DNA from: an uncultured bacterium
Lineage (GTDB): Bacteria; Margulisbacteria; WOR-1; JAKLHX01
Assembly: GCA_964633925.1 (NCBI GenBank)
Contig: CAZWKB010000003.1
Span: 4,598-68,597, forward strand
DNA: 64,000 nucleotides
Direction: 5' to 3'
Shown one piece after another: positions 35,663 to 46,856 of this stretch. Below the pieces are notes generated by a model. The model worked only from the letters and a program-made list of their open reading frames with translations. It was not told where the DNA came from and ran no database searches. A program made the translations under genes and the position numbers. The stretch's first letter is position 1; each line of letters opens with the position of its first letter.

Positions 35663-35692
35663 TATATTATAAAGCAGTAGGAGGTTTTGAGG

Positions 35693-36604
35693 TTGTCAAA
35701 GTATATTATTGGTGGAGGGATTGCCGGTTTAATTGCGGCTTATTATAATAAAGAATATAAGATTATTTCTCAAGATATTGGCGGTCAAATGGTTTCTAAA
35801 AATGTTGGCCCAAGAATATTAGAAGTAAATCAATATTCTAAAGAATTTCTTAATGATTTAGGCATAAAAGAATGCCCTATCAAAATCGCTAAAATAGGTT
35901 ATAAAGTAGAAGGAAAGCTTGTAAATTCAATATCTGAAGACTTAAGAAAAAAATATTATATTAAGTCAAGATGTTTACATACGGCAGCTATTGTACCAAG
36001 TTCAATAATGTCAGACGGTAAGAGTTTTATTGAATATTTCGATATTGATTGGGACAAAGTTGTTAGTATTTTAGTAAATAGTATAGAAAAACCTATAAAC
36101 GGTAAAGTTAGTTTAATCGATACTACAAATCATATCTTAAAAGTAGAATCTGATGGTTCTGAAATTTTAAGATATGATAGTTTGGTATCGACAATTCCTG
36201 CACCGGTATTCTTTAAAATTTCAAACTTGCAACCAGAACAAGAACTTAAGTATGTTCAAAAGGTTTTTGTAGTAATGAATGAAGACCAAATTGACTTTGG
36301 GGAGTTTGATTATATATATTTCCCAGACTCAGCTCACGGATATCATAGGATATCTAAAACAGGAAATGGAAAGGCTTCAATAGAATATACGACAAATAAG
36401 AGTTATAAGTCTATAATTCAAACTTGGTCAATGTATTCTCGCGAACATCACGTTATTCCTGTTGGTCAGATTCAGAGCGGTAAGGTTCAAGAAATAAATG
36501 ATATTTTGTTTCTTGGAAGATATGCAAGTTGGGACCATGATATAAAAACAGATGATATTGTCAAAATTTGTAGAGATGGGGGTTTGATTAATGCAAAACG
36601 ATAA
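35693..36604 (+). CDS. FAD/NAD(P)-binding Rossmann flavoprotein (UDP-galactopyranose mutase / amine-oxidase-like)
   Basis: IIGGGIAGLIAAYY is GxGxxG at the N-terminus. C-terminal FLGRYASWDHD resembles the UGM GRxxxYxYxxMD motif. TTG 35693 lies 8 nt after AGGAGG. Confidence 0.55.
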   Translation: MSKYIIGGGIAGLIAAYYNKEYKIISQDIGGQMVSKNVGPRILEVNQYSKEFLNDLGIKECPIKIAKIGYKVEGKLVNSISEDLRKKYYIKSRCLHTAAIVPSSIMSDGKSFIEYFDIDWDKVVSILVNSIEKPINGKVSLIDTTNHILKVESDGSEILRYDSLVSTIPAPVFFKISNLQPEQELKYVQKVFVVMNEDQIDFGEFDYIYFPDSAHGYHRISKTGNGKASIEYTTNKSYKSIIQTWSMYSREHHVIPVGQIQSGKVQEINDILFLGRYASWDHDIKTDDIVKICRDGGLINAKR

Positions 36605-37547
36605 AGACAAGCTTAAGCATTTGTGGGACGTTCAGTTAGAATTTAACAGGAAGTTTTACAGGGCAAAGATAGGTAAAGAAATGGAAGACATGACTATGGA
36701 AGAAAAAGTATTTTGGTCTAAAAACCAATTGCTTTCTATAGTAAAAGAATCAATGGAAGTGCTGGATGAAATTCCGAATTGGAAAGAGCATCGCAATATT
36801 GAAACAGAATTTATTCCTTCGAATTTATATGAAGAAATAATCGATGTCAATAAATTCTCAGTAGGACTTGCACAAATCTGGGGTATGACCTTTGAAGATT
36901 ATTATGAGGAATATCTTAGAAAAAGCTGGGTTGTTGACCAGAGATGGACACAAGAACATGATTTAAAACTTATTGACAAAGACGAAAAGATTGCAGCAGT
37001 TGACATTGATGGCGTCTTAGGAGAATATCCATTTTGGTTCTTGGAGTTTGTTCGGGCGAGAGTTGGACAGAAATTTAATTCATTAGAAGAAGCAAAGGCA
37101 GGGCTTGGTACGATTTATTATGAAAGACTTAAGTCTGACTATCGCCAGTCAGGATGGAAATCTTCTATGCCTGCTTGCAAACATGCTTCAGAATTTACTA
37201 ATTTACTTCATCAAAAAGGATATAAAGTGGTAATTCTTACAGCACGCCCTTATAAGGAATATTACACTATTTATCCGGACACATTAAAGTTCCTTAAGGA
37301 AAACAATATATATTTCGACGCTATTATTTGGGATAAAGAGAAACATCTTAAAATCATAAAAGAATTTCCTAAAATGCTTTTTATGGTAGAAGATTGTATT
37401 GAGATTGCGATCGATGTTGCAAAAGAAGGTTATGTGGTTTTTCTTAAAGATTGTTATGACAATACTAATCGTATTCCATCTGAATTAAGTAATTTGATTA
37501 TACCGTTTATAGACCTTCTAGATATAGTCGAAAAGTGGAACATATAA
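36591..37547 (+). CDS. Fusion: all-alpha NTP pyrophosphatase (dimeric dUTPase/MazG-like) + HAD 5'(3')-deoxyribonucleotidase-like domain
   Basis: N-terminal half: LWDVQLEFNRKF...ESMEVLDEIPNWKEHR...EEIIDVNKF...EYLRKSWVVDQRW. C-terminal half: AAVDIDGVLGEY (DxDxV), VVILTARP and FMVEDC. Confidence 0.6.
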   Translation: MQNDKDKLKHLWDVQLEFNRKFYRAKIGKEMEDMTMEEKVFWSKNQLLSIVKESMEVLDEIPNWKEHRNIETEFIPSNLYEEIIDVNKFSVGLAQIWGMTFEDYYEEYLRKSWVVDQRWTQEHDLKLIDKDEKIAAVDIDGVLGEYPFWFLEFVRARVGQKFNSLEEAKAGLGTIYYERLKSDYRQSGWKSSMPACKHASEFTNLLHQKGYKVVILTARPYKEYYTIYPDTLKFLKENNIYFDAIIWDKEKHLKIIKEFPKMLFMVEDCIEIAIDVAKEGYVVFLKDCYDNTNRIPSELSNLIIPFIDLLDIVEKWNI

Positions 37548-37590: not shown

Positions 37591-37624
37591 AAGGTGTATA
37601 TTTAAGGTGAAGGGGGTTTTTAAA

Positions 37625-38053
37625 ATGGCAATTTTGCTTTTCGTCGGCTGCGATAAGACTGGCAAAAGTACACTTATGAAAAATATCTTAAAAAGAACAA
37701 ACCAACATATTTGCGTGGACAGGTTTACTCCATGTCAGTATGTTTATGGGAGGCTTCATAATAAAAATTCAACTCCAAGTTTGGAAAGTTTTAGAAATTT
37801 GGAAAGTTTTTTAACAAAATCTCCTATTCCAGTTATGTTTGTTCATGTTTTTGCCGATACTGAAGATATTAAGAAAAGGTTTATAGAACATGATGAAAAA
37901 GATATTGATTTACAACAGATTGATTATGTAAAGCAACAATATAGGCAGTATTTAGAAAATACTTCTTTAAAAGTATTAAATATAAACACTTCTAAATATT
38001 GTATAGATGAGTGTATGGAACAAATTCTGTTAACAGCTGAACGCTTATTATAA
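37625..38053 (+). CDS. Small P-loop (deoxy)nucleotide kinase-like protein
   Basis: MAILLFVGCDKTGKST has Walker A at the extreme N-terminus, as in dNMP/thymidylate kinases. 142 aa. ATG 37625 follows GAAGGGGG. Confidence 0.5.
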   Translation: MAILLFVGCDKTGKSTLMKNILKRTNQHICVDRFTPCQYVYGRLHNKNSTPSLESFRNLESFLTKSPIPVMFVHVFADTEDIKKRFIEHDEKDIDLQQIDYVKQQYRQYLENTSLKVLNINTSKYCIDECMEQILLTAERLL

Positions 38054-38066
38054 GGAGAGATTTAAT

Positions 38067-39104
38067 ATGAAAGCAAAATTGGGAATGGGTGGTTACTTTG
38101 TAAATCCTGTTGACCATCCTGAAAGAATAATCAGATATGCATATGATATGCTAGATATTAGGATTTTTGATACTTCTCCAGCATATGGTGCTAGTGAAGA
38201 ATTTTTTGGGCATGCGCTTAGAGACTATCAGAGGGAGTCCTATTTATTGTCTACTAAGACAAAGGCAGCTACAGTCAAAGAACTTCATTTGTCTTTGGTA
38301 AATAGTTTAGGTAAACTCAATACTGACTATGTAGACTTTTATTTTGGCCATTCGTTTATAGATGATGACGAAACCTTGGAAAAATCTATGAACGTTTTAC
38401 ATGAGATGAAAAATATTAAGGACAAAGGGTTTATAAAAAGTGTAGGTGTTTCTGGGCATTCAGTTACTGCTGCAATGACTGCAATAGAAAGTGGATTTGT
38501 AGATATAATAATGGTACCATTTTCTTTAATGCATAGGGAGTTTGAATCTATTATTCAATGTGCAAAAGAAAAAGGAATTAGTGTAGTCACTATGAAAAAC
38601 TTCGCAAGCGGAATATTGCTTGGAGGGCCTTCTGATAATGAATTTAAACGCACTGTGACATTGCAAAAAGTTATGAATTTTTCTGCATACAATGGTGACT
38701 TAATCATTCCGGCTTATCGTTCTATAGAACAATTACAACAAATAGCAAATGCATATTGCTTTGCTGAAAAACTATCTGAAAAAGAAATTATGATTTTAGA
38801 AAATCAGATAGTTGATTTTTTTGGTTCTGACTTTTGTAGGTTTTGCAACGAATGCAGGCCATGCCAGAAATATGGTTGGGCAATGTCGCAGCCCGGTATA
38901 TTAAAATGCGCAATATATCAAGAAAAGTTTGGACTTGACATGAAAGACAGTTATGAAAAATATAAATATAATGTAAATGACTGTAAAGACTGTGACAGCC
39001 AATGTTCTTCTAATTGCCCGTTTGGAATAAATATTAAAGAGAAAATGCAACAGGCACATGATTTATTTTCAGGAGTTGATAAAGATGAAACGATATCTAA
39101 ATAA
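38067..39104 (+). CDS. Aldo/keto reductase with C-terminal Fe-S (ferredoxin-like) cysteine clusters
   Basis: AKR-like FDTSPAYGASEEFFGHAL...DYVDFYFGHS. The C-terminus carries CRFCNECRPC and CKDCDSQCSSNCP. Confidence 0.6.
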   Translation: MKAKLGMGGYFVNPVDHPERIIRYAYDMLDIRIFDTSPAYGASEEFFGHALRDYQRESYLLSTKTKAATVKELHLSLVNSLGKLNTDYVDFYFGHSFIDDDETLEKSMNVLHEMKNIKDKGFIKSVGVSGHSVTAAMTAIESGFVDIIMVPFSLMHREFESIIQCAKEKGISVVTMKNFASGILLGGPSDNEFKRTVTLQKVMNFSAYNGDLIIPAYRSIEQLQQIANAYCFAEKLSEKEIMILENQIVDFFGSDFCRFCNECRPCQKYGWAMSQPGILKCAIYQEKFGLDMKDSYEKYKYNVNDCKDCDSQCSSNCPFGINIKEKMQQAHDLFSGVDKDETISK

Positions 39105-39576
39105 GGAAGACAGATATAATACTATTATTTTAGGGACTCTCGTTGACTTCATGAATAATTTGATTATCAAGTTTGAAGAACTTAAAAGACCAAAGTCTGT
39201 AATTAAGTTTATGAAAATGTCAAGGTCATTCTGCCTAAAAGTTATAGATTGGTACTTTCAAAATCTTGATGACAAATATAAGCATGATGTAATAAATGAA
39301 ATGAAAAAACTTGAAATAATAGTAAAACAAAAGACTGAAGCCATTAGGGAATTTAAAGAAATGGAAAAAATAGAATCAAATATGGTTGTTGTTACAGAAG
39401 ATTTTTATGAAATTTGTGAATATGCTTTGCTTGTCTGTATGAAATGTAAGGCAGGCAAAGAACAAATTGCAGAATGCAAGTTAAAGGAAGCTATGATAAG
39501 AAATAACGTTCCAGTTATGCATTTGGAAATTTCTGATGATGGTTGCCCTTATAAATATAATCAGGAGGTGCTTTAA
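39085..39576 (+). CDS. Hypothetical helical protein with C-terminal Cys motif
   Basis: ATG 39085 follows AGGAG and overlaps the AKR 3' end by 20 nt. Carries CMKCKAGKEQIAEC...GCPY. Confidence 0.4.
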   Translation: MKRYLNKEDRYNTIILGTLVDFMNNLIIKFEELKRPKSVIKFMKMSRSFCLKVIDWYFQNLDDKYKHDVINEMKKLEIIVKQKTEAIREFKEMEKIESNMVVVTEDFYEICEYALLVCMKCKAGKEQIAECKLKEAMIRNNVPVMHLEISDDGCPYKYNQEVL

Positions 39577-39577
39577 C

Positions 39578-40669
39578 ATGGATGTAGTTAGAGAAAAGAC
39601 AGTTAAGAAAATATTGCCGTATGTAAAGCTTATTGAAAAAGAAGCTTTGAAAGGCCCGATATCGTTGCATATTTTAGTTACTGACTACTGCGTCAACCGG
39701 TGTAATATGTGCGGTCATTGGAAAACTAAAAATCGCAATAATTTGGACATTTCTATTTTAAAAGAAATATGGGATGACTGTAATGAAAATGAAGTAGAGT
39801 CAATCTGCTTAACTGGCGGTGACCCAATTCTCCATCCAGATTTTGATAAAATTCTGGATATGAAAAGAAATTTTGACCTTGGAATTATTTGCACAGGTAA
39901 TTTTAAAAAGAATTTCGATTTTTCGAAATTGGCAAGCTTAAGGTGGATACGCTTTTCTATTGATTCTCTAGACCCTGCTAGATACACTTTTATTAGGGGC
40001 CTCGATAATTTATATGGAACGATTTTGCCTAACGTTAGAAAGGCTCAAGAGCATCAAAAAGAGGTTGGAATAAATTTCACAATACAGAAAAGTAATTGCA
40101 TGGACATTCGCGACATTATTAAGTTTTCTGCAGAAAATAATATCTATAGACTTATGATTTATCCTATGCACGGTGATGGAAACCTCTGTATTGGTAGAGA
40201 TGAAATTGAAATAATTTTAGAACAACTAAACGATATGATAAGTAAGAACTATCACAAAAGAATACCCGAAAACAATTTGCAGTTTCTTTATGACAGCCTT
40301 ATACAGGCATATTCACAAGATGAAGATGTTAGAAAAGTGACATTCGGTAATTATCCATGCATCATAAATAAAATTCATTTAGCTATAGGTTCTGATGGAA
40401 ATGTATTTCCGTGCGAGATGATTGCTGATGATACAGATGAATATGGAGAAAGAACATTTTGGGAATTGCAAAAGTTCAGCGATTGCTTAATGGAAAGACA
40501 AACTTCATTTACAGGCCTTGGCAATGTTAATTCTGAAAGCATTATAAAAATATGGAAAAGAAATTTCAACAAAACATTCTGTTCCGGAAAATGTGATAAT
40601 TGCTTTAGTAGATATCAGCCAATAAACCAAGCATACTATGAAAATCGTAATAAAAAGGTATTTATATAA
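39578..40669 (+). CDS. Radical SAM enzyme with SPASM/twitch-type C-terminal cysteine clusters
   Basis: CVNRCNMCGHW is CxxxCxxC, with LTGGDPILHPDF following. C-terminal YPCIINKIHLAIGSDGNVFPCE and CSGKCDNCFSRY. ATG 39578 follows AGGAGGTG. Confidence 0.7.
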   Translation: MDVVREKTVKKILPYVKLIEKEALKGPISLHILVTDYCVNRCNMCGHWKTKNRNNLDISILKEIWDDCNENEVESICLTGGDPILHPDFDKILDMKRNFDLGIICTGNFKKNFDFSKLASLRWIRFSIDSLDPARYTFIRGLDNLYGTILPNVRKAQEHQKEVGINFTIQKSNCMDIRDIIKFSAENNIYRLMIYPMHGDGNLCIGRDEIEIILEQLNDMISKNYHKRIPENNLQFLYDSLIQAYSQDEDVRKVTFGNYPCIINKIHLAIGSDGNVFPCEMIADDTDEYGERTFWELQKFSDCLMERQTSFTGLGNVNSESIIKIWKRNFNKTFCSGKCDNCFSRYQPINQAYYENRNKKVFI

Positions 40670-40749: not shown

Positions 40750-41805
40750 ATGAGTAACGAAACTACGCGTATCAATGAACTTAGGAGAGTTATGGGGACA
40801 CTTCCAGACCAAGACCCAAAACTTGAAACAAAATTTTTAAAAGGTGTTGAAGGAATTTCGGTAAAACTTATCGAATCTGTCATTGCAAACCCTTATAAAC
40901 CAATGTATATTCTGGCTACTACATGCTGGGGTAAAGAGGTAGATAAATGGGAAATGACATCGCCTGAAAACAGATTTGAAGTTGTTAAGGCAGCTTTAAG
41001 AGGCCAAGCGTTACCATTGGCATTGGAAGTACCTCAATTTGCTTTTGCAGTAGAAGGGCCATCACGTGCGGCATTCGATCAGATTGCAAGAGCAAGACTT
41101 GGTGTTGTATTTTCTGCAAGAGGTATGAGGGATAACAATTGGAAAGATGCTTCAATAAGGATTCCAACTGCACTTTGGCCAACAGAAGATGAAATTCAAA
41201 TTTTCGATGAATGGCGCAGTAATATCATCAAAACACCTACAGCAGAGCAGCAAAAAGCAATTGACAAATGCAATATTTTTTGGAATATCAAGCGTGTTAT
41301 GTGCGATGTTAAACAGACATATGCAGATATTGTTGACGTTGGTAAAGGTTCTTGGCAGGCAGCTCGCTGTGTACTACCTCTTTATGTAGTTTATGGTTTT
41401 TCGTTTTCGATTAACTTTATGGCATTGAGGAATATGTGCAGTACCAGAATGAAATTCTGCGAAATGGAAGATACAGTTGCTATTGCATGGCAAACAGCTA
41501 GGGCTGTGTCGGAAGCATATCCGTTGCTTGGTTCATTTTTAAGACCTGGTTGTGATTGGGCAGGCAAATGCCAGTACCACAAATCTTATACACTGTCTGA
41601 AATGTTTGGCTGTTTGTTTAAGGAGTGTGGAAGGAATTCATGTCCCGACAGCAATGACTATGCGGAGTTTAATGAAACATGCACAAACTATAAGGACCTT
41701 GAGGAACAGCTCGGTATTCATATTACAAGGCCCGATGAATGGCCTAATTTCGAAACTTTTGATAGCCTTCCCGATATTGAAAAAGCAAGGTTTATGGAAG
41801 ACTAA
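40750..41805 (+). CDS. Divergent ThyX-fold (flavin-dependent thymidylate synthase-like) protein with a Cys-rich C-terminal extension
   Basis: FAFAVEGPSRAAFDQIARARLGVVFSARGMR aligns to the ThyX RHRxxSxxxxSxRY motif but with RHR changed to RAR. AARCVLPLYVVYGFSFSINFMALRNMCSTR aligns to the ThyX ARxVLPL...N.R.L.NF..LR helix. 351 aa. Confidence 0.6.
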   Translation: MSNETTRINELRRVMGTLPDQDPKLETKFLKGVEGISVKLIESVIANPYKPMYILATTCWGKEVDKWEMTSPENRFEVVKAALRGQALPLALEVPQFAFAVEGPSRAAFDQIARARLGVVFSARGMRDNNWKDASIRIPTALWPTEDEIQIFDEWRSNIIKTPTAEQQKAIDKCNIFWNIKRVMCDVKQTYADIVDVGKGSWQAARCVLPLYVVYGFSFSINFMALRNMCSTRMKFCEMEDTVAIAWQTARAVSEAYPLLGSFLRPGCDWAGKCQYHKSYTLSEMFGCLFKECGRNSCPDSNDYAEFNETCTNYKDLEEQLGIHITRPDEWPNFETFDSLPDIEKARFMED

Positions 41806-41870: not shown

Positions 41871-42404
41871 ATGCATGGATTAGGTTTAAGGCAAGTGATT
41901 GAAAATCTTCAATTGTTTGTAGTTGAAAAAGGAAAGCCTGTCTTAGTTGACGGACAAGGTACTATTGAAGTCCTCAATCATAGTTTTAATATTTCTTATA
42001 ACAGTCAAATTGATATTGCTGATATTAAGAAAAATATGGTTGAATATTATAATAGTCACAAGATAGACTTGAAAAGCATCGAGGAACTGGAAAAGGAAGA
42101 ATACAGTAAAATCGAAAATGAACTTTTATCAAAGTTTTCATTATTTGATGAAGATTTGCATTCCAGAAGAGTTTTATGGTCGGATGACTGTTGTATCAGT
42201 TTAATTCACTATCTCGTTCGGGATTCAAAAATTTACTGCTATGTACACCTAAGAAGCTCTGAAGTTGAACAGAAATTATTTTCTGATATGTACTTAGTGC
42301 ATAAAATAACAAGAGCTTTACAAGACAAATTAAATATAGATGTTGCAATGATTTTTGTAAATGGGCATAGTATGCATAAGCTTGTATTTAAAGTTAATGA
42401 GTAG
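41871..42404 (+). CDS. Truncated ThyA-fold enzyme (thymidylate synthase / dCMP hydroxymethylase superfamily), 177 aa
   Basis: Ungapped match to the E. coli ThyA core: Cys108 = C146, exactly 20 residues before Arg128-Ser129 = R166-S167; Asp139 = N177; His169 = H207 (GHSMHKL against GGDTHLY). SRR = R126/R127. Confidence 0.65.
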   Translation: MHGLGLRQVIENLQLFVVEKGKPVLVDGQGTIEVLNHSFNISYNSQIDIADIKKNMVEYYNSHKIDLKSIEELEKEEYSKIENELLSKFSLFDEDLHSRRVLWSDDCCISLIHYLVRDSKIYCYVHLRSSEVEQKLFSDMYLVHKITRALQDKLNIDVAMIFVNGHSMHKLVFKVNE

Positions 42405-46154: not shown

Positions 46155-46856
46155 ATGCAGATTATTAAACCTGGCTTCGCAATAGAAGAAGGCATTGATG
46201 GTTTAGCTATCCTTAGAAAAATCGAAAAAGCAGGTAGAACTTGCTATAAATCTGAGGATAAAATAACTGATGAGTCGGCAAAAAAGTTCGTTGCTTCTTT
46301 AATTAAAAGCGGCCACGAGGCAATGATTGAACATCATTTTGTAACTGTAACTTTTACTGTAGATAGAGGAGTTACACATGAAATTGTTCGGCACCGTATT
46401 GCTTCATATGCACAAGAATCTACAAGGTATTGCAATTATGGTAAAGAAAAAAGCGGCTCAGAAATTACCGTAATTGATATTCGTGAAATTATGGAAGCAG
46501 AAGTTGGTAAGACCTATAAGCATCCAGTTAATAATGAACAGATTCTTGTAACTGCAGAACTTGTTAATTACTGGATTTCTGAATGGTTAGGTGCTATCGA
46601 AGACTCTGAAAGGCACTACATATCGCTTGTAAATTCTGGTTGTCCTGCACAATTGGCACGTTCGGTGCTATTACATTCTGTCAAGTCTGATATCGTTGTT
46701 ACAATGGACTTAAGAGAGTGGAGGCATTTCTTTAGGCTTCGCGCATTAGGTACTACTGGAAAACCTCATCCACAGATGGTGCAAGTAGCTAAACCTTTGT
46801 TGGACGAAATGAAAGTCCAAATCCCGGTTGTCTTTGATGACCTTTCATATGCTTAA
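46155..46856 (+). CDS. thyX: Flavin-dependent thymidylate synthase ThyX (canonical)
   Basis: GVTHEIVRHRIASYAQESTRY contains the full RHRxxSxxxxSxRY signature. 233 aa. Confidence 0.9.
   Translation: MQIIKPGFAIEEGIDGLAILRKIEKAGRTCYKSEDKITDESAKKFVASLIKSGHEAMIEHHFVTVTFTVDRGVTHEIVRHRIASYAQESTRYCNYGKEKSGSEITVIDIREIMEAEVGKTYKHPVNNEQILVTAELVNYWISEWLGAIEDSERHYISLVNSGCPAQLARSVLLHSVKSDIVVTMDLREWRHFFRLRALGTTGKPHPQMVQVAKPLLDEMKVQIPVVFDDLSYA

What the first reader, a model, noticed from the sequence alone, without database searches (positions are those of the whole stretch)
38067..40669. Fe-S aldo/keto reductase, Cys-motif protein and radical SAM/SPASM trio inside a phage operon
The AKR (345 aa) ends in CRFCNECRPC and CKDCDSQCSSNCP clusters. 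The next ORF overlaps it by 20 nt and ends in CMKCKAGKEQIAEC...GCPY. The radical SAM protein has CVNRCNMC plus C-terminal PC...G.V.PC and CSGKCDNC auxiliary-cluster motifs (SPASM/twitch). SPASM enzymes usually act on peptides (sactipeptides, anSME, PqqE) or on sugars/cyclitols (BtrN). There are two competing readings. One is redox tailoring of a sugar or base adduct in the modification pathway. The other is a phage-encoded peptide or protein maturation system with the 164-aa Cys protein as substrate or partner. Either would be unusual for a phage.
Basis: inference. Interest (0 to 1): 0.6.

Follow-up and report, generated by a model that had tools for sequence, protein, structure and literature searches.

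The report
Phage Fe-S reductase and radical-SAM pair
A large phage of anaerobes carries a conserved pair of iron-sulfur enzymes inside a gene island that probably makes modified DNA pyrimidines; the cysteine protein between them is an unrelated, come-and-go phage gene, not a substrate for peptide maturation.

Summary
The trio is not a functional unit.

The conserved unit is a pair. One member is an aldo/keto-reductase-fold protein with a C-terminal 8-Cys dicluster domain. The other is a radical SAM enzyme with CX3CX2C plus only four invariant C-terminal Cys, which fits one auxiliary cluster (twitch type), not a full SPASM domain. In 9 of 10 assessable related phage lineages the AKR gene lies directly upstream of the rSAM gene. 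The pair sits in a nucleotide-chemistry island: FAD-like protein, NTP-pyrophosphatase/HAD fusion, P-loop dNMP-kinase-like protein, ThyX-derived protein and mini thymidylate-synthase-fold protein, next to DnaE.

The 163-aa DUF5651 protein occurs in only 3 of 11 lineages. It belongs to a larger all-helical phage family of at least 162 clusters. Members of that family occur elsewhere with no rSAM or AKR nearby.

The rSAM passes no curated subfamily (MoaA, NrdG, QueE, PqqE, viperin). It has no RRE domain, and no conserved precursor gene accompanies it.

Relatives whose ThyX-like gene is about 60% identical lack the pair, and one lineage lacks only the AKR. The pair is therefore an accessory tailoring or redox module.

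The substrate is unknown, and the chemistry I propose is inference. Other notes of this scan cover neighbouring genes of the same island.

The parts
38067..39104 (+). AKR-fold protein (345 aa) with a C-terminal 8-Cys, two-[4Fe-4S]-type dicluster domain
   Evidence: Pfam Aldo_ket_red 2.6e-27 over residues 16-192, weak Fer4_18 at 291-329. Best solved relative is IolS/AKR11 at 9e-17, barrel part only. Tetrad D35/Y40/K64/H95 and all eight Cys are conserved, also in cellular 380-440 aa AKR-Fer4 proteins. Directly upstream of the rSAM in 9 of 10 assessable lineages.
39085..39576 (+). DUF5651-family protein (163 aa), all-helical with a C-terminal CxxC-x9-C-x22-CPY knuckle; a lineage-specific insert
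   Evidence: PF18892 27.4 bits. 48% identical to the L008 copy at the same site. Present only in the window, L007 and L008/9. 162 representative clusters in the family. Model pLDDT 91, seven helices, no PDB match, only other phage DUF5651 proteins in BFVD.
39578..40669 (+). Radical SAM enzyme (363 aa) with a single-auxiliary-cluster (twitch-type) C-terminal domain
   Evidence: Pfam Radical_SAM and SPASM. No NCBIfam model reaches its cut-off. Invariant CX3CX2C, C77, and C261-X17-C279...C339-X2-C342. Model pLDDT 91, core starts at residue 29, no RRE domain. Foldseek TM 0.5-0.6 to SkfB, SuiB, DesII, BlsE, viperin, anSME and MoaA. AGGAGG lies 8 nt upstream of the ATG.
35687..36604 (+). Context: FAD/Rossmann-like protein (GGGIAG motif), part of the conserved island
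   Evidence: Conserved at 30-57% identity in all related loci, including those without the pair. No Pfam or PDB match.
36591..37547 (+). Context: NTP-pyrophosphohydrolase-like N-domain fused to a HAD/NT5C-like phosphatase
   Evidence: PHROG 173 and 12184 (NTP pyrophosphohydrolase) at the N-terminus, PHROG 415 (HAD-type) at the C-terminus. Relatives carry dUTPase_2 and NT5C marks.
37607..38053 (+). Context: small P-loop dNMP-kinase-like protein
   Evidence: PHROG 761 thymidylate kinase 1.2e-8; NCBIfam dTMP kinase 4e-4, below cut-off.
40750..41805 (+). Context: divergent ThyX-derived protein with a Cys-rich tail
   Evidence: Pfam Thy1 1.1e-13. The Cys-rich tail is conserved in relatives with and without the rSAM.
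41871..42404 (+). Context: 177-aa thymidylate-synthase-fold-like protein immediately before DnaE
   Evidence: Weak matches to thymidylate synthase models. Conserved in all related loci.

Best explanation
The AKR-fold Fe-S protein and the twitch-type radical SAM enzyme form a co-inherited, tightly packed enzyme pair. The pair is an optional add-on to a phage island for pre-replicative pyrimidine-nucleotide modification. The core of that island is the ThyX-derived protein, the mini-TS-fold protein, the FAD-like protein, the HAD/NTP-pyrophosphatase and the dNMP-kinase-like protein, next to DnaE. Proposed mechanism, all inferred: the rSAM cleaves SAM and abstracts a hydrogen from a small anionic substrate, either a nucleotide or the group installed on it. 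Its fully Cys-ligated auxiliary cluster takes or gives the second electron, as in BtrN-type enzymes, and the product is an oxidised or dehydrated (carbonyl) intermediate. The AKR barrel, whose catalytic tetrad is intact, then processes that carbonyl. Its two-cluster ferredoxin-like tail either relays electrons to or from the rSAM, or the whole AKR serves mainly as the rSAM's redox partner. The DUF5651 Cys protein is an independent phage gene inserted at the AKR/rSAM junction in one sub-clade. It is neither substrate nor obligate partner.
For: Shown:
- The gene order FAD-like / MazG-HAD / kinase / AKR / rSAM / ThyX-like / mini-TS / DnaE is kept across phages whose DnaE is only 39-83% identical. 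This holds in loci L003, L004, L005/6, L008/9, L010, L011, L021 and L022.
- AKR-rSAM adjacency survives a rearrangement that moved the ThyX-like gene in L022.
- The rSAM family is small and isolated: 28 close homologues (46-78% identity) among 5.8 billion clusters, the next hit at E 1e-4. Every locus I fetched for it (11 lineages) has this same island context. There is no family member in 146 genomes of the bin's phylum.
- The rSAM has one 4-Cys auxiliary site and no RRE domain.
- Its closest sequence matches are the nucleotide-using MoaA and viperin cores. Several sugar- or nucleotide-modifying enzymes (DesII, BlsE, viperin, MoaA) are among its fold matches.
- The AKR tetrad and all eight Cys are conserved.
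- DUF5651 is patchy and occurs without an rSAM elsewhere.
- The pair is accessory: L017 and L019 have a ThyX-like protein about 60% identical, plus the FAD-like, HAD, kinase and mini-TS genes, but give no A1 or A2 HMM hit within 10 kb either side.
Background: in BtrN a 4-Cys auxiliary cluster is proposed as the electron acceptor in a two-electron oxidation (PMC9012708). An rSAM enzyme in phage DNA hypermodification has a precedent in M6 gp53 (PMC8989533).
Against: - No substrate, product or DNA modification has been observed.
- Synteny within one phage clade may reflect common descent, not functional linkage.
- Phages with equally similar ThyX-like genes do without the pair, so its link to that chemistry is only positional.
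- L020/L023 keeps the rSAM but has no AKR in 24 of 28 kb. This argues against an obligatory rSAM-then-AKR two-step and favours a replaceable redox-partner role.
- The residues aligned with the SNF and Q positions of IolS are changed to S-G-H and Met, so canonical NAD(P)H use is doubtful.
- Fold matches also include peptide-modifying enzymes (SkfB, SuiB, CteB, anSME) at the same TM scores.
Confidence: 0.5

Rival explanations
1. Peptide/protein maturation system: the rSAM post-translationally modifies the DUF5651 Cys protein, with the AKR as a helper.
For: The three genes are packed head to tail with overlapping or abutting stops and starts. The Pfam SPASM domain matches. SkfB, SuiB, CteB and anSME are among the fold matches.
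Against: DUF5651 is absent from 8 of 11 rSAM lineages. In L003, L004, L010 and L021 the AKR stop and rSAM start abut, and in L022 they lie 14 nt apart. The DUF5651 family has at least 162 clusters and occurs without an rSAM or AKR in phage THSA-485A, which has no A1 hit in the whole genome, and in IMG/VR loci L014 and L015. It is a confidently folded 160-aa helical protein, not a leader-core peptide. The rSAM has no RRE domain and only one auxiliary Cys set.
Confidence: 0.04
2. Enzyme maturase/activase: the rSAM modifies or activates a neighbouring enzyme (the Cys-rich ThyX-derived protein or the mini-TS-fold protein), and the AKR-ferredoxin fusion supplies electrons.
For: The best full-length NCBIfam alignment is to a 'tungsten cofactor oxidoreductase radical SAM maturase' (64.6 bits, model positions 6-298 of 349). 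The ThyX-like gene lies just downstream in most loci. anSME-type maturases lack RRE domains. Loss of the AKR alone in L020 fits an electron-donor role.
Against: That score is far below the model cut-off of 380. ThyX-like proteins from loci without the rSAM (L017-L019) show no visible difference, and the same Cys tail is conserved. anSME-type enzymes carry two auxiliary clusters; here there is one.
Confidence: 0.15
3. The pair has nothing to do with DNA modification. It is an auxiliary metabolic or redox function for anaerobic hosts (cofactor or sugar chemistry) that sits in the replication region by descent.
For: The pair is dispensable for phages with the same core island. All carriers belong to one DnaE-encoding phage clade, so synteny is not independent evidence. 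The AKR's nearest non-phage relatives are cellular AKR-Fer4 proteins of unknown role.
Against: The pair is always embedded between the kinase and the ThyX-like or mini-TS genes, never elsewhere, even after local rearrangement and many insertions (GIY-YIG, HD, ligase, UDG, sigma factor). No sugar-transfer or cofactor genes are seen beside it.
Confidence: 0.2
4. A housekeeping radical SAM enzyme (MoaA, QueE or NrdG).
For: MoaA is the top solved-structure sequence match (9e-13). There are weak PHROG matches to NrdG-like and QueE-like models.
Against: MoaA models score 55-58 bits against cut-offs of 231-325. The matches cover only the generic core, positions 22-195. The QueE-like and NrdG-like matches have E-values of 4e-3 and 8e-5. 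No NrdD is found in the phage contig or in the bin, and the only RNR is on a bacterial contig.
Confidence: 0.03

Closest known systems
BtrN (2-deoxy-scyllo-inosamine dehydrogenase), the twitch-domain radical SAM enzyme
   Same: CX3CX2C plus one C-terminal auxiliary site with four Cys in a C-x(~17)-C ... C-x2-C arrangement. No peptide-recognition domain. Likely small-molecule substrate. In BtrN the auxiliary cluster is proposed as the electron acceptor (PMC9012708).
   Different: No detectable specific sequence relationship. BtrN is not among the top 50 fold matches. This enzyme carries an extra invariant Cys77 beside the GGD motif and has a different genomic context (phage nucleotide island).
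MoaA and viperin (nucleotide-triphosphate-using radical SAM enzymes)
   Same: Best sequence-level similarity of the SAM core: MoaA 9e-13, pVip models 5e-13, viperin structures 3e-4. MoaA is also a twitch enzyme.
   Different: Far below the family cut-offs. MoaA's auxiliary cluster has three Cys and an open Fe site (PMC9012708); here there are four invariant Cys. As far as I know viperin has no auxiliary cluster. TM is only 0.5.
Phage M6 gp53, the radical SAM isomerase of thymidine hypermodification (PMC8989533)
   Same: An rSAM enzyme encoded in a phage pyrimidine-hypermodification gene cluster.
   Different: gp53 is spore-photoproduct-lyase-like, acts on DNA after replication, and works with a PLP decarboxylase. 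This enzyme belongs to the SPASM/twitch group and is paired with an Fe-S AKR. No SPL appears among its top 50 fold matches. Its neighbours point to nucleotide-pool chemistry.
AprD4/AprD3 (radical SAM dehydratase plus NADPH-dependent reductase; my recollection, not checked here)
   Same: An adjacent rSAM and carbonyl-reductase pair acting in sequence on a small molecule for a net deoxygenation.
   Different: A different reductase family, no Fe-S domain on the reductase, an aminoglycoside substrate, and no homology shown.
Cellular AKR-ferredoxin fusions (COG1453-like 'predicted aldo/keto reductase-like oxidoreductases')
   Same: The same architecture. The catalytic tetrad, the S-x-H motif and both 4-Cys motifs align.
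   Different: Only 22-28% identical. The cellular proteins are longer, and some carry twin-arginine-like signal peptides. They are themselves uncharacterised: a search for COG1453 found one paper that only mentions the term.

Membership tests
Radical SAM superfamily (PF04055) | CX3CX2C cluster motif and a SAM-binding core above the Pfam gathering score | tested here: met
   43.6 bits against a cut-off of 29.5. C38/C42/C45 are invariant and a GGDP (GGE-like) motif is invariant.
SPASM domain (two auxiliary clusters) | Seven to eight conserved C-terminal Cys binding AuxI and AuxII | tested here: not met
   Only C261, C279, C339 and C342 are invariant in 26 homologues. The Pfam SPASM match is marginal (24.4 against 21.5).
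Twitch subclass (one auxiliary cluster) | A truncated SPASM domain with one Cys set (definition in PMC9012708) | tested here: met
   CX12GX4C ... CX2C with four invariant Cys. Actual cluster binding cannot be tested with these tools.
MoaA (GTP 3',8-cyclase) | Score above the NCBIfam equivalog cut-off | tested here: not met
   54.9-58.4 bits against cut-offs of 231-325. Only the core aligns.
NrdG / QueE | Family-level match, and a partner gene (NrdD) for NrdG | tested here: not met
   PHROG E-values of 8e-5 and 4e-3 only. No NrdD in the genome bin.
Prokaryotic viperin (pVip) | Full-length match to pVip models, with no auxiliary-cluster domain | tested here: not met
   47 bits over residues 33-224 only. 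The protein has an additional 4-Cys domain.
RiPP radical SAM maturase | An N-terminal RRE (peptide-recognition) domain and a conserved adjacent precursor gene | tested here: not met
   The model shows one helix (residues 3-20) and then the core from residue 29. The genes between or beside AKR and rSAM differ from locus to locus.
Aldo/keto reductase superfamily (PF00248) | A (beta/alpha)8 barrel match and the Asp-Tyr-Lys-His catalytic tetrad | tested here: met
   96.1 bits against a cut-off of 24. D35 and H95 are invariant; Y40 and K64 are at least 90% conserved.
Aldo/keto reductase superfamily (PF00248) | Canonical nicotinamide-contacting Asn (S-N-F) and Gln | tested here: not met
   The alignment to IolS puts S-G-H opposite S-N-F and Met opposite Gln. 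The S-x-H motif is conserved in the whole AKR-Fer4 group. That these residues contact the cofactor is my own knowledge.
Two-[4Fe-4S] dicluster (Fer4_17/18-like) domain | Two 4-Cys motifs, the second ending in CP | tested here: inconclusive
   All eight Cys are conserved, but the Pfam Fer4_18 match is only 17.3 bits against a cut-off of 27.
DUF5651 (PF18892) | Score at or above the gathering threshold | tested here: met
   27.4 against 27. Supported by 162 full-length relatives and four invariant Cys, and by BFVD matches annotated DUF5651.
Known thymidine-hypermodification clusters (5-HMUDK, aGPT-Pplase, SPL-like rSAM) | An SPL-like rSAM together with aGPT-Pplase and PLP-enzyme genes | tested here: not met
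   No spore photoproduct lyase is among the top 50 fold matches. No such Pfam families are found in the nine island proteins. aGPT-Pplase was not searched for specifically.

The most novel reading that the evidence does not exclude
The pair performs a previously undescribed anaerobic, SAM-driven step on a free (deoxy)nucleotide. One possibility is radical oxidation or dehydration followed by Fe-S-AKR reduction, which would remodel either the C5 side chain made by the mini-TS/ThyX-derived core or the sugar itself. The result would be a new DNA base or sugar modification in phages of strict anaerobes. It would also be the first functional assignment for the widespread AKR-ferredoxin fusion architecture.
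Probability: 0.15. Interest if true: 0.85.

Novelty: new variant of a known kind. Interest (0 to 1): 0.55.

Why it matters
Phage DNA hypermodification pathways yield new nucleic-acid chemistry and show how phages evade host restriction. Radical SAM enzymes in such pathways are rare: QueE in the 7-deazaguanine pathway and M6 gp53. This report delimits a sharply isolated, phage-only twitch-rSAM family and its Fe-S AKR partner. It shows that the pair is an optional add-on to an uncharacterised ThyX-derived/mini-TS island, and it removes a misleading candidate substrate. That leaves a clean experiment: island with and without the pair, run anaerobically, read out by nucleoside LC-MS. The same experiment could give a first handle on the uncharacterised AKR-ferredoxin fusion proteins of anaerobes.

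Tried and rejected
- Phage GenBank (INPHARED) tblastn with the rSAM, the AKR and the DUF5651 protein found only remote or no matches, and no annotated relative of the pair.
- The word-indexed homologue search with the DUF5651 protein found only itself. The exhaustive representative search was needed.
- The search for related loci with the DUF5651 alignment failed because there was no conserved stretch. With P0125 it found nothing.
- PDB sequence searches for the FAD-like and MazG-HAD neighbours were uninformative.
- Foldseek of the DUF5651 model against the PDB gave no significant match.
- PADLOC gave only generic pVip core similarity.
- Literature searches found nothing describing this pair or island: DUF5651 gave 0 papers, COG1453 gave 1 irrelevant paper, and combinations of radical SAM, ThyX, AKR and phage gave nothing relevant.
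- Searches of the bin's class and phylum found no DUF5651 or rSAM family members.
- I considered an RNR-like role. The phage contig has no RNR, but nothing positive supports the idea, so it is kept only inside the novel case.
Full report
**Observation**

All three ORFs exist as described, on the + strand of a gene-dense, single-orientation region.

- The AKR (38067-39104, 345 aa) carries CRFCNECRPC and CKDCDSQCSSNCP.
- The middle gene is open from 39058. Homologues begin at MKxYLN, and a GGAG lies 8 nt before ATG 39085.
- The rSAM ORF is open from 39536. Its homologues all start at MDVV. ATG 39578 follows AGGAGG by 8 nt and the upstream stop by 1 nt, giving 363 aa.
- Pfam assigns Aldo_ket_red (2.6e-27), DUF5651 (27.4 bits, cut-off 27), and Radical_SAM plus a marginal SPASM match.
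- The window is a roughly 110-kb tailed phage with tape measure, baseplate wedge, endolysin, DnaB and UvsX-like genes. It sits on a 111-kb contig of slightly lower GC than the rest of a 2.1-Mb bin.

**The trio is not conserved; the pair is**

I examined 11 distinct rSAM-bearing lineages: the window, L003, L004, L005/6, L007, L008/9, L010, L011, L020/23, L021 and L022. Their rSAM identity to the window is 47-76% and their DnaE identity is 28-83%.

- The AKR gene lies immediately upstream of the rSAM in 9 of the 10 lineages where this can be judged.
- In L003, L004, L010 and L021 the AKR stop and rSAM start abut, and in L022 they are 14 nt apart.
- In L022 the ThyX-like gene has moved upstream, yet AKR and rSAM stay together.
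- The DUF5651 gene is present only in the window, L007 and L008/9. The L008 copy is 48% identical over its full length.
- L005/6 has two unrelated small ORFs at the junction. In L007 a 73-aa ORF lies between the DUF5651 gene and the rSAM.
- L020/23 keeps the rSAM but has no AKR in 24.3 of its 28.3 kb.

**The DUF5651 protein**

- An exhaustive phmmer search found 162 representative clusters (at 50% identity) of full-length relatives about 160 aa long.
- In 40 aligned members Y4, C118, C121, C131 and C154 are invariant.
- In the complete 42-kb Thermoanaerobacterium phage THSA-485A, the family member lies between a VRR-NUC nuclease gene and a RinA-type regulator/terminase block. The rSAM profile finds nothing in that genome.
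- In two IMG/VR contigs the family member follows a ThyX gene, again with no rSAM or AKR within 6 kb.
- The AF2 model (pLDDT 91) is a seven-helix protein with a C-terminal Cys knuckle. It matches nothing in the PDB and only other phage DUF5651 proteins in BFVD.
- It is a folded, independently distributed phage protein of unknown role, not a precursor peptide.

**The radical SAM enzyme**

- The family is tiny and isolated. There are 28 close homologues (46-78% identity) among 5.8 billion clusters, and the next hit has E 1e-4.
- There is no family member in 146 genomes of the bin's phylum. Only generic core matches of 67 bits or less appear there.
- Invariant residues are C38/C42/C45, C77 (next to the GGDP motif), C261, C279 (in the CX12GX4C arrangement), C339 and C342, together with many basic residues.
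- Four C-terminal Cys indicate one auxiliary cluster. By the definition in PMC9012708 this is the twitch class, not a full SPASM domain. Four ligands resemble BtrN more than MoaA, which has three Cys and an open Fe site.
- No NCBIfam model comes near its cut-off. The best scores are the W-cofactor maturase at 64.6 against 380 and MoaA at 58 against 231.
- The profile search of PDB sequences gives MoaA, SuiB, SkfB, PqqE and viperin, and for all but SuiB only over the SAM core.
- The pLDDT-91 model has no N-terminal RRE domain.
- Its fold neighbours are a mix of peptide modifiers (SkfB, SuiB, CteB, anSME) and nucleotide or sugar modifiers (DesII, BlsE, viperin, MoaA), all at TM 0.5-0.6.
- It is not NrdG, since no NrdD is present. 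It is not QueE or a pVip.

**The AKR**

- The barrel keeps the Asp-Tyr-Lys-His tetrad. All eight Cys of the tail are conserved. The same features align in cellular AKR-Fer4 proteins of 380-440 aa at 22-28% identity.
- The alignment to IolS places S-G-H where AKRs have S-N-F, and Met where they have the nicotinamide-contacting Gln. The S-x-H motif is typical of the whole AKR-Fer4 group.
- Canonical NAD(P)H use is therefore doubtful. The role of those residues is my own knowledge.
- No solved structure covers the Fe-S tail.

**Context and accessory status**

- The flanking genes are a Rossmann/FAD-like protein, an NTP-pyrophosphohydrolase-HAD fusion, a small dNMP-kinase-like P-loop protein, a ThyX-derived protein with a Cys-rich tail, and a 177-aa TS-fold-like protein just before DnaE. 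Other notes of this scan read the last two as a rebuilt ThyX and a cytosine-type minimal TS. I did not retest those claims beyond confirming the family matches and the conserved Cys tail.
- IMG/VR contigs L017 and L019 have ThyX-like proteins closer to the window's (59-63% identity) than those of half the rSAM-bearing phages. They carry the FAD-like, HAD, kinase and mini-TS genes, but give no hit to the rSAM or AKR profiles within 10 kb either side. L018 looks the same but is only partly assessable.
- Their ThyX-like sequences show no visible difference from those of rSAM-bearing phages.
- The pair is thus an optional add-on to a five-gene core.

**Interpretation**

The best-supported reading is an accessory redox or tailoring pair acting on a small anionic substrate within a pre-replicative pyrimidine-nucleotide modification island. 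I put it at about 0.5.

The specific chemistry is inference by analogy with BtrN-type enzymes and with rSAM-dehydratase/reductase pairs. It runs as follows: the rSAM abstracts a hydrogen and produces an oxidised or dehydrated intermediate, and the AKR barrel then reduces that intermediate or supplies redox support through its dicluster tail. Loss of the AKR alone in one lineage favours a replaceable redox-partner role.

Rivals:

- A maturase acting on a neighbouring enzyme (0.15).
- A function unrelated to DNA modification that is syntenic by descent (0.2).
- Peptide maturation of the DUF5651 protein (0.04).
- A housekeeping subfamily such as MoaA, QueE or NrdG (0.03).

I found no paper describing this pair or island. 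The known precedent for an rSAM in phage pyrimidine hypermodification, M6 gp53, is SPL-like and acts after replication (PMC8989533).

**Limits**

- No substrate, product or expression data are available.
- All carriers belong to one phage clade, so conserved synteny is weak evidence for functional coupling.

Noticed in passing
L007:1813-2421; L022:9709-13035; L011:11095-11691: Mobile or variable inserts pepper the island in relatives: a GIY-YIG endonuclease gene between the rSAM and the ThyX-like gene (L007), an intein inside DnaE (L022), and an HD-domain gene after the rSAM (L011). The island is a hot spot for insertions, which fits DUF5651 being one of them.
   Followed up: partly
L005:2704-4606; L020:2784-4579; L022:5977-6546; L010:7127-8419: In the more distant rSAM-bearing phages, a UDG-family gene and/or an ATP-dependent DNA ligase gene sits inside the island between the MazG-HAD gene and the kinase (L005 and L020 both, L022 UDG only, L010 ligase only). 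In L005, L010 and L020 a sigma-70-like gene separates the ThyX-like gene from the mini-TS gene. A UDG inside the island may bear on which base is modified.
   Followed up: no
L004:11125-11337; L008:19700-19903: Anti-defence-type small genes (Pfam Tad2-like; Acb2_Tad1_hairpin) lie near the island in relatives.
   Followed up: no
window 46155-46856: The canonical ThyX (Thy1 1.9e-38) just after DnaE was detected by tblastn only in the closest relative L003 (64% identity). A weak Thy1-marked gene occupies the same place in L008. It was not detected in the more distant island-bearing phages.
   Followed up: partly
window 1-64000 (contig C3 of the bin): The 111-kb phage contig has 35.4% GC against about 37.7% for the large contigs of the 2.1-Mb bin. 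Its DUF5651 and rSAM families are absent from all other genomes of the bin's class and phylum. It may be a virulent phage contig binned with the bacterium, not a prophage. No terminal repeat was found.
   Followed up: partly
L017:13687-14184: In the pair-less relative L017 a dCMP-deaminase-like ORF (judged by eye from its sequence) directly follows the mini-TS gene. This may hint at which pyrimidine pool the core island handles.
   Followed up: no
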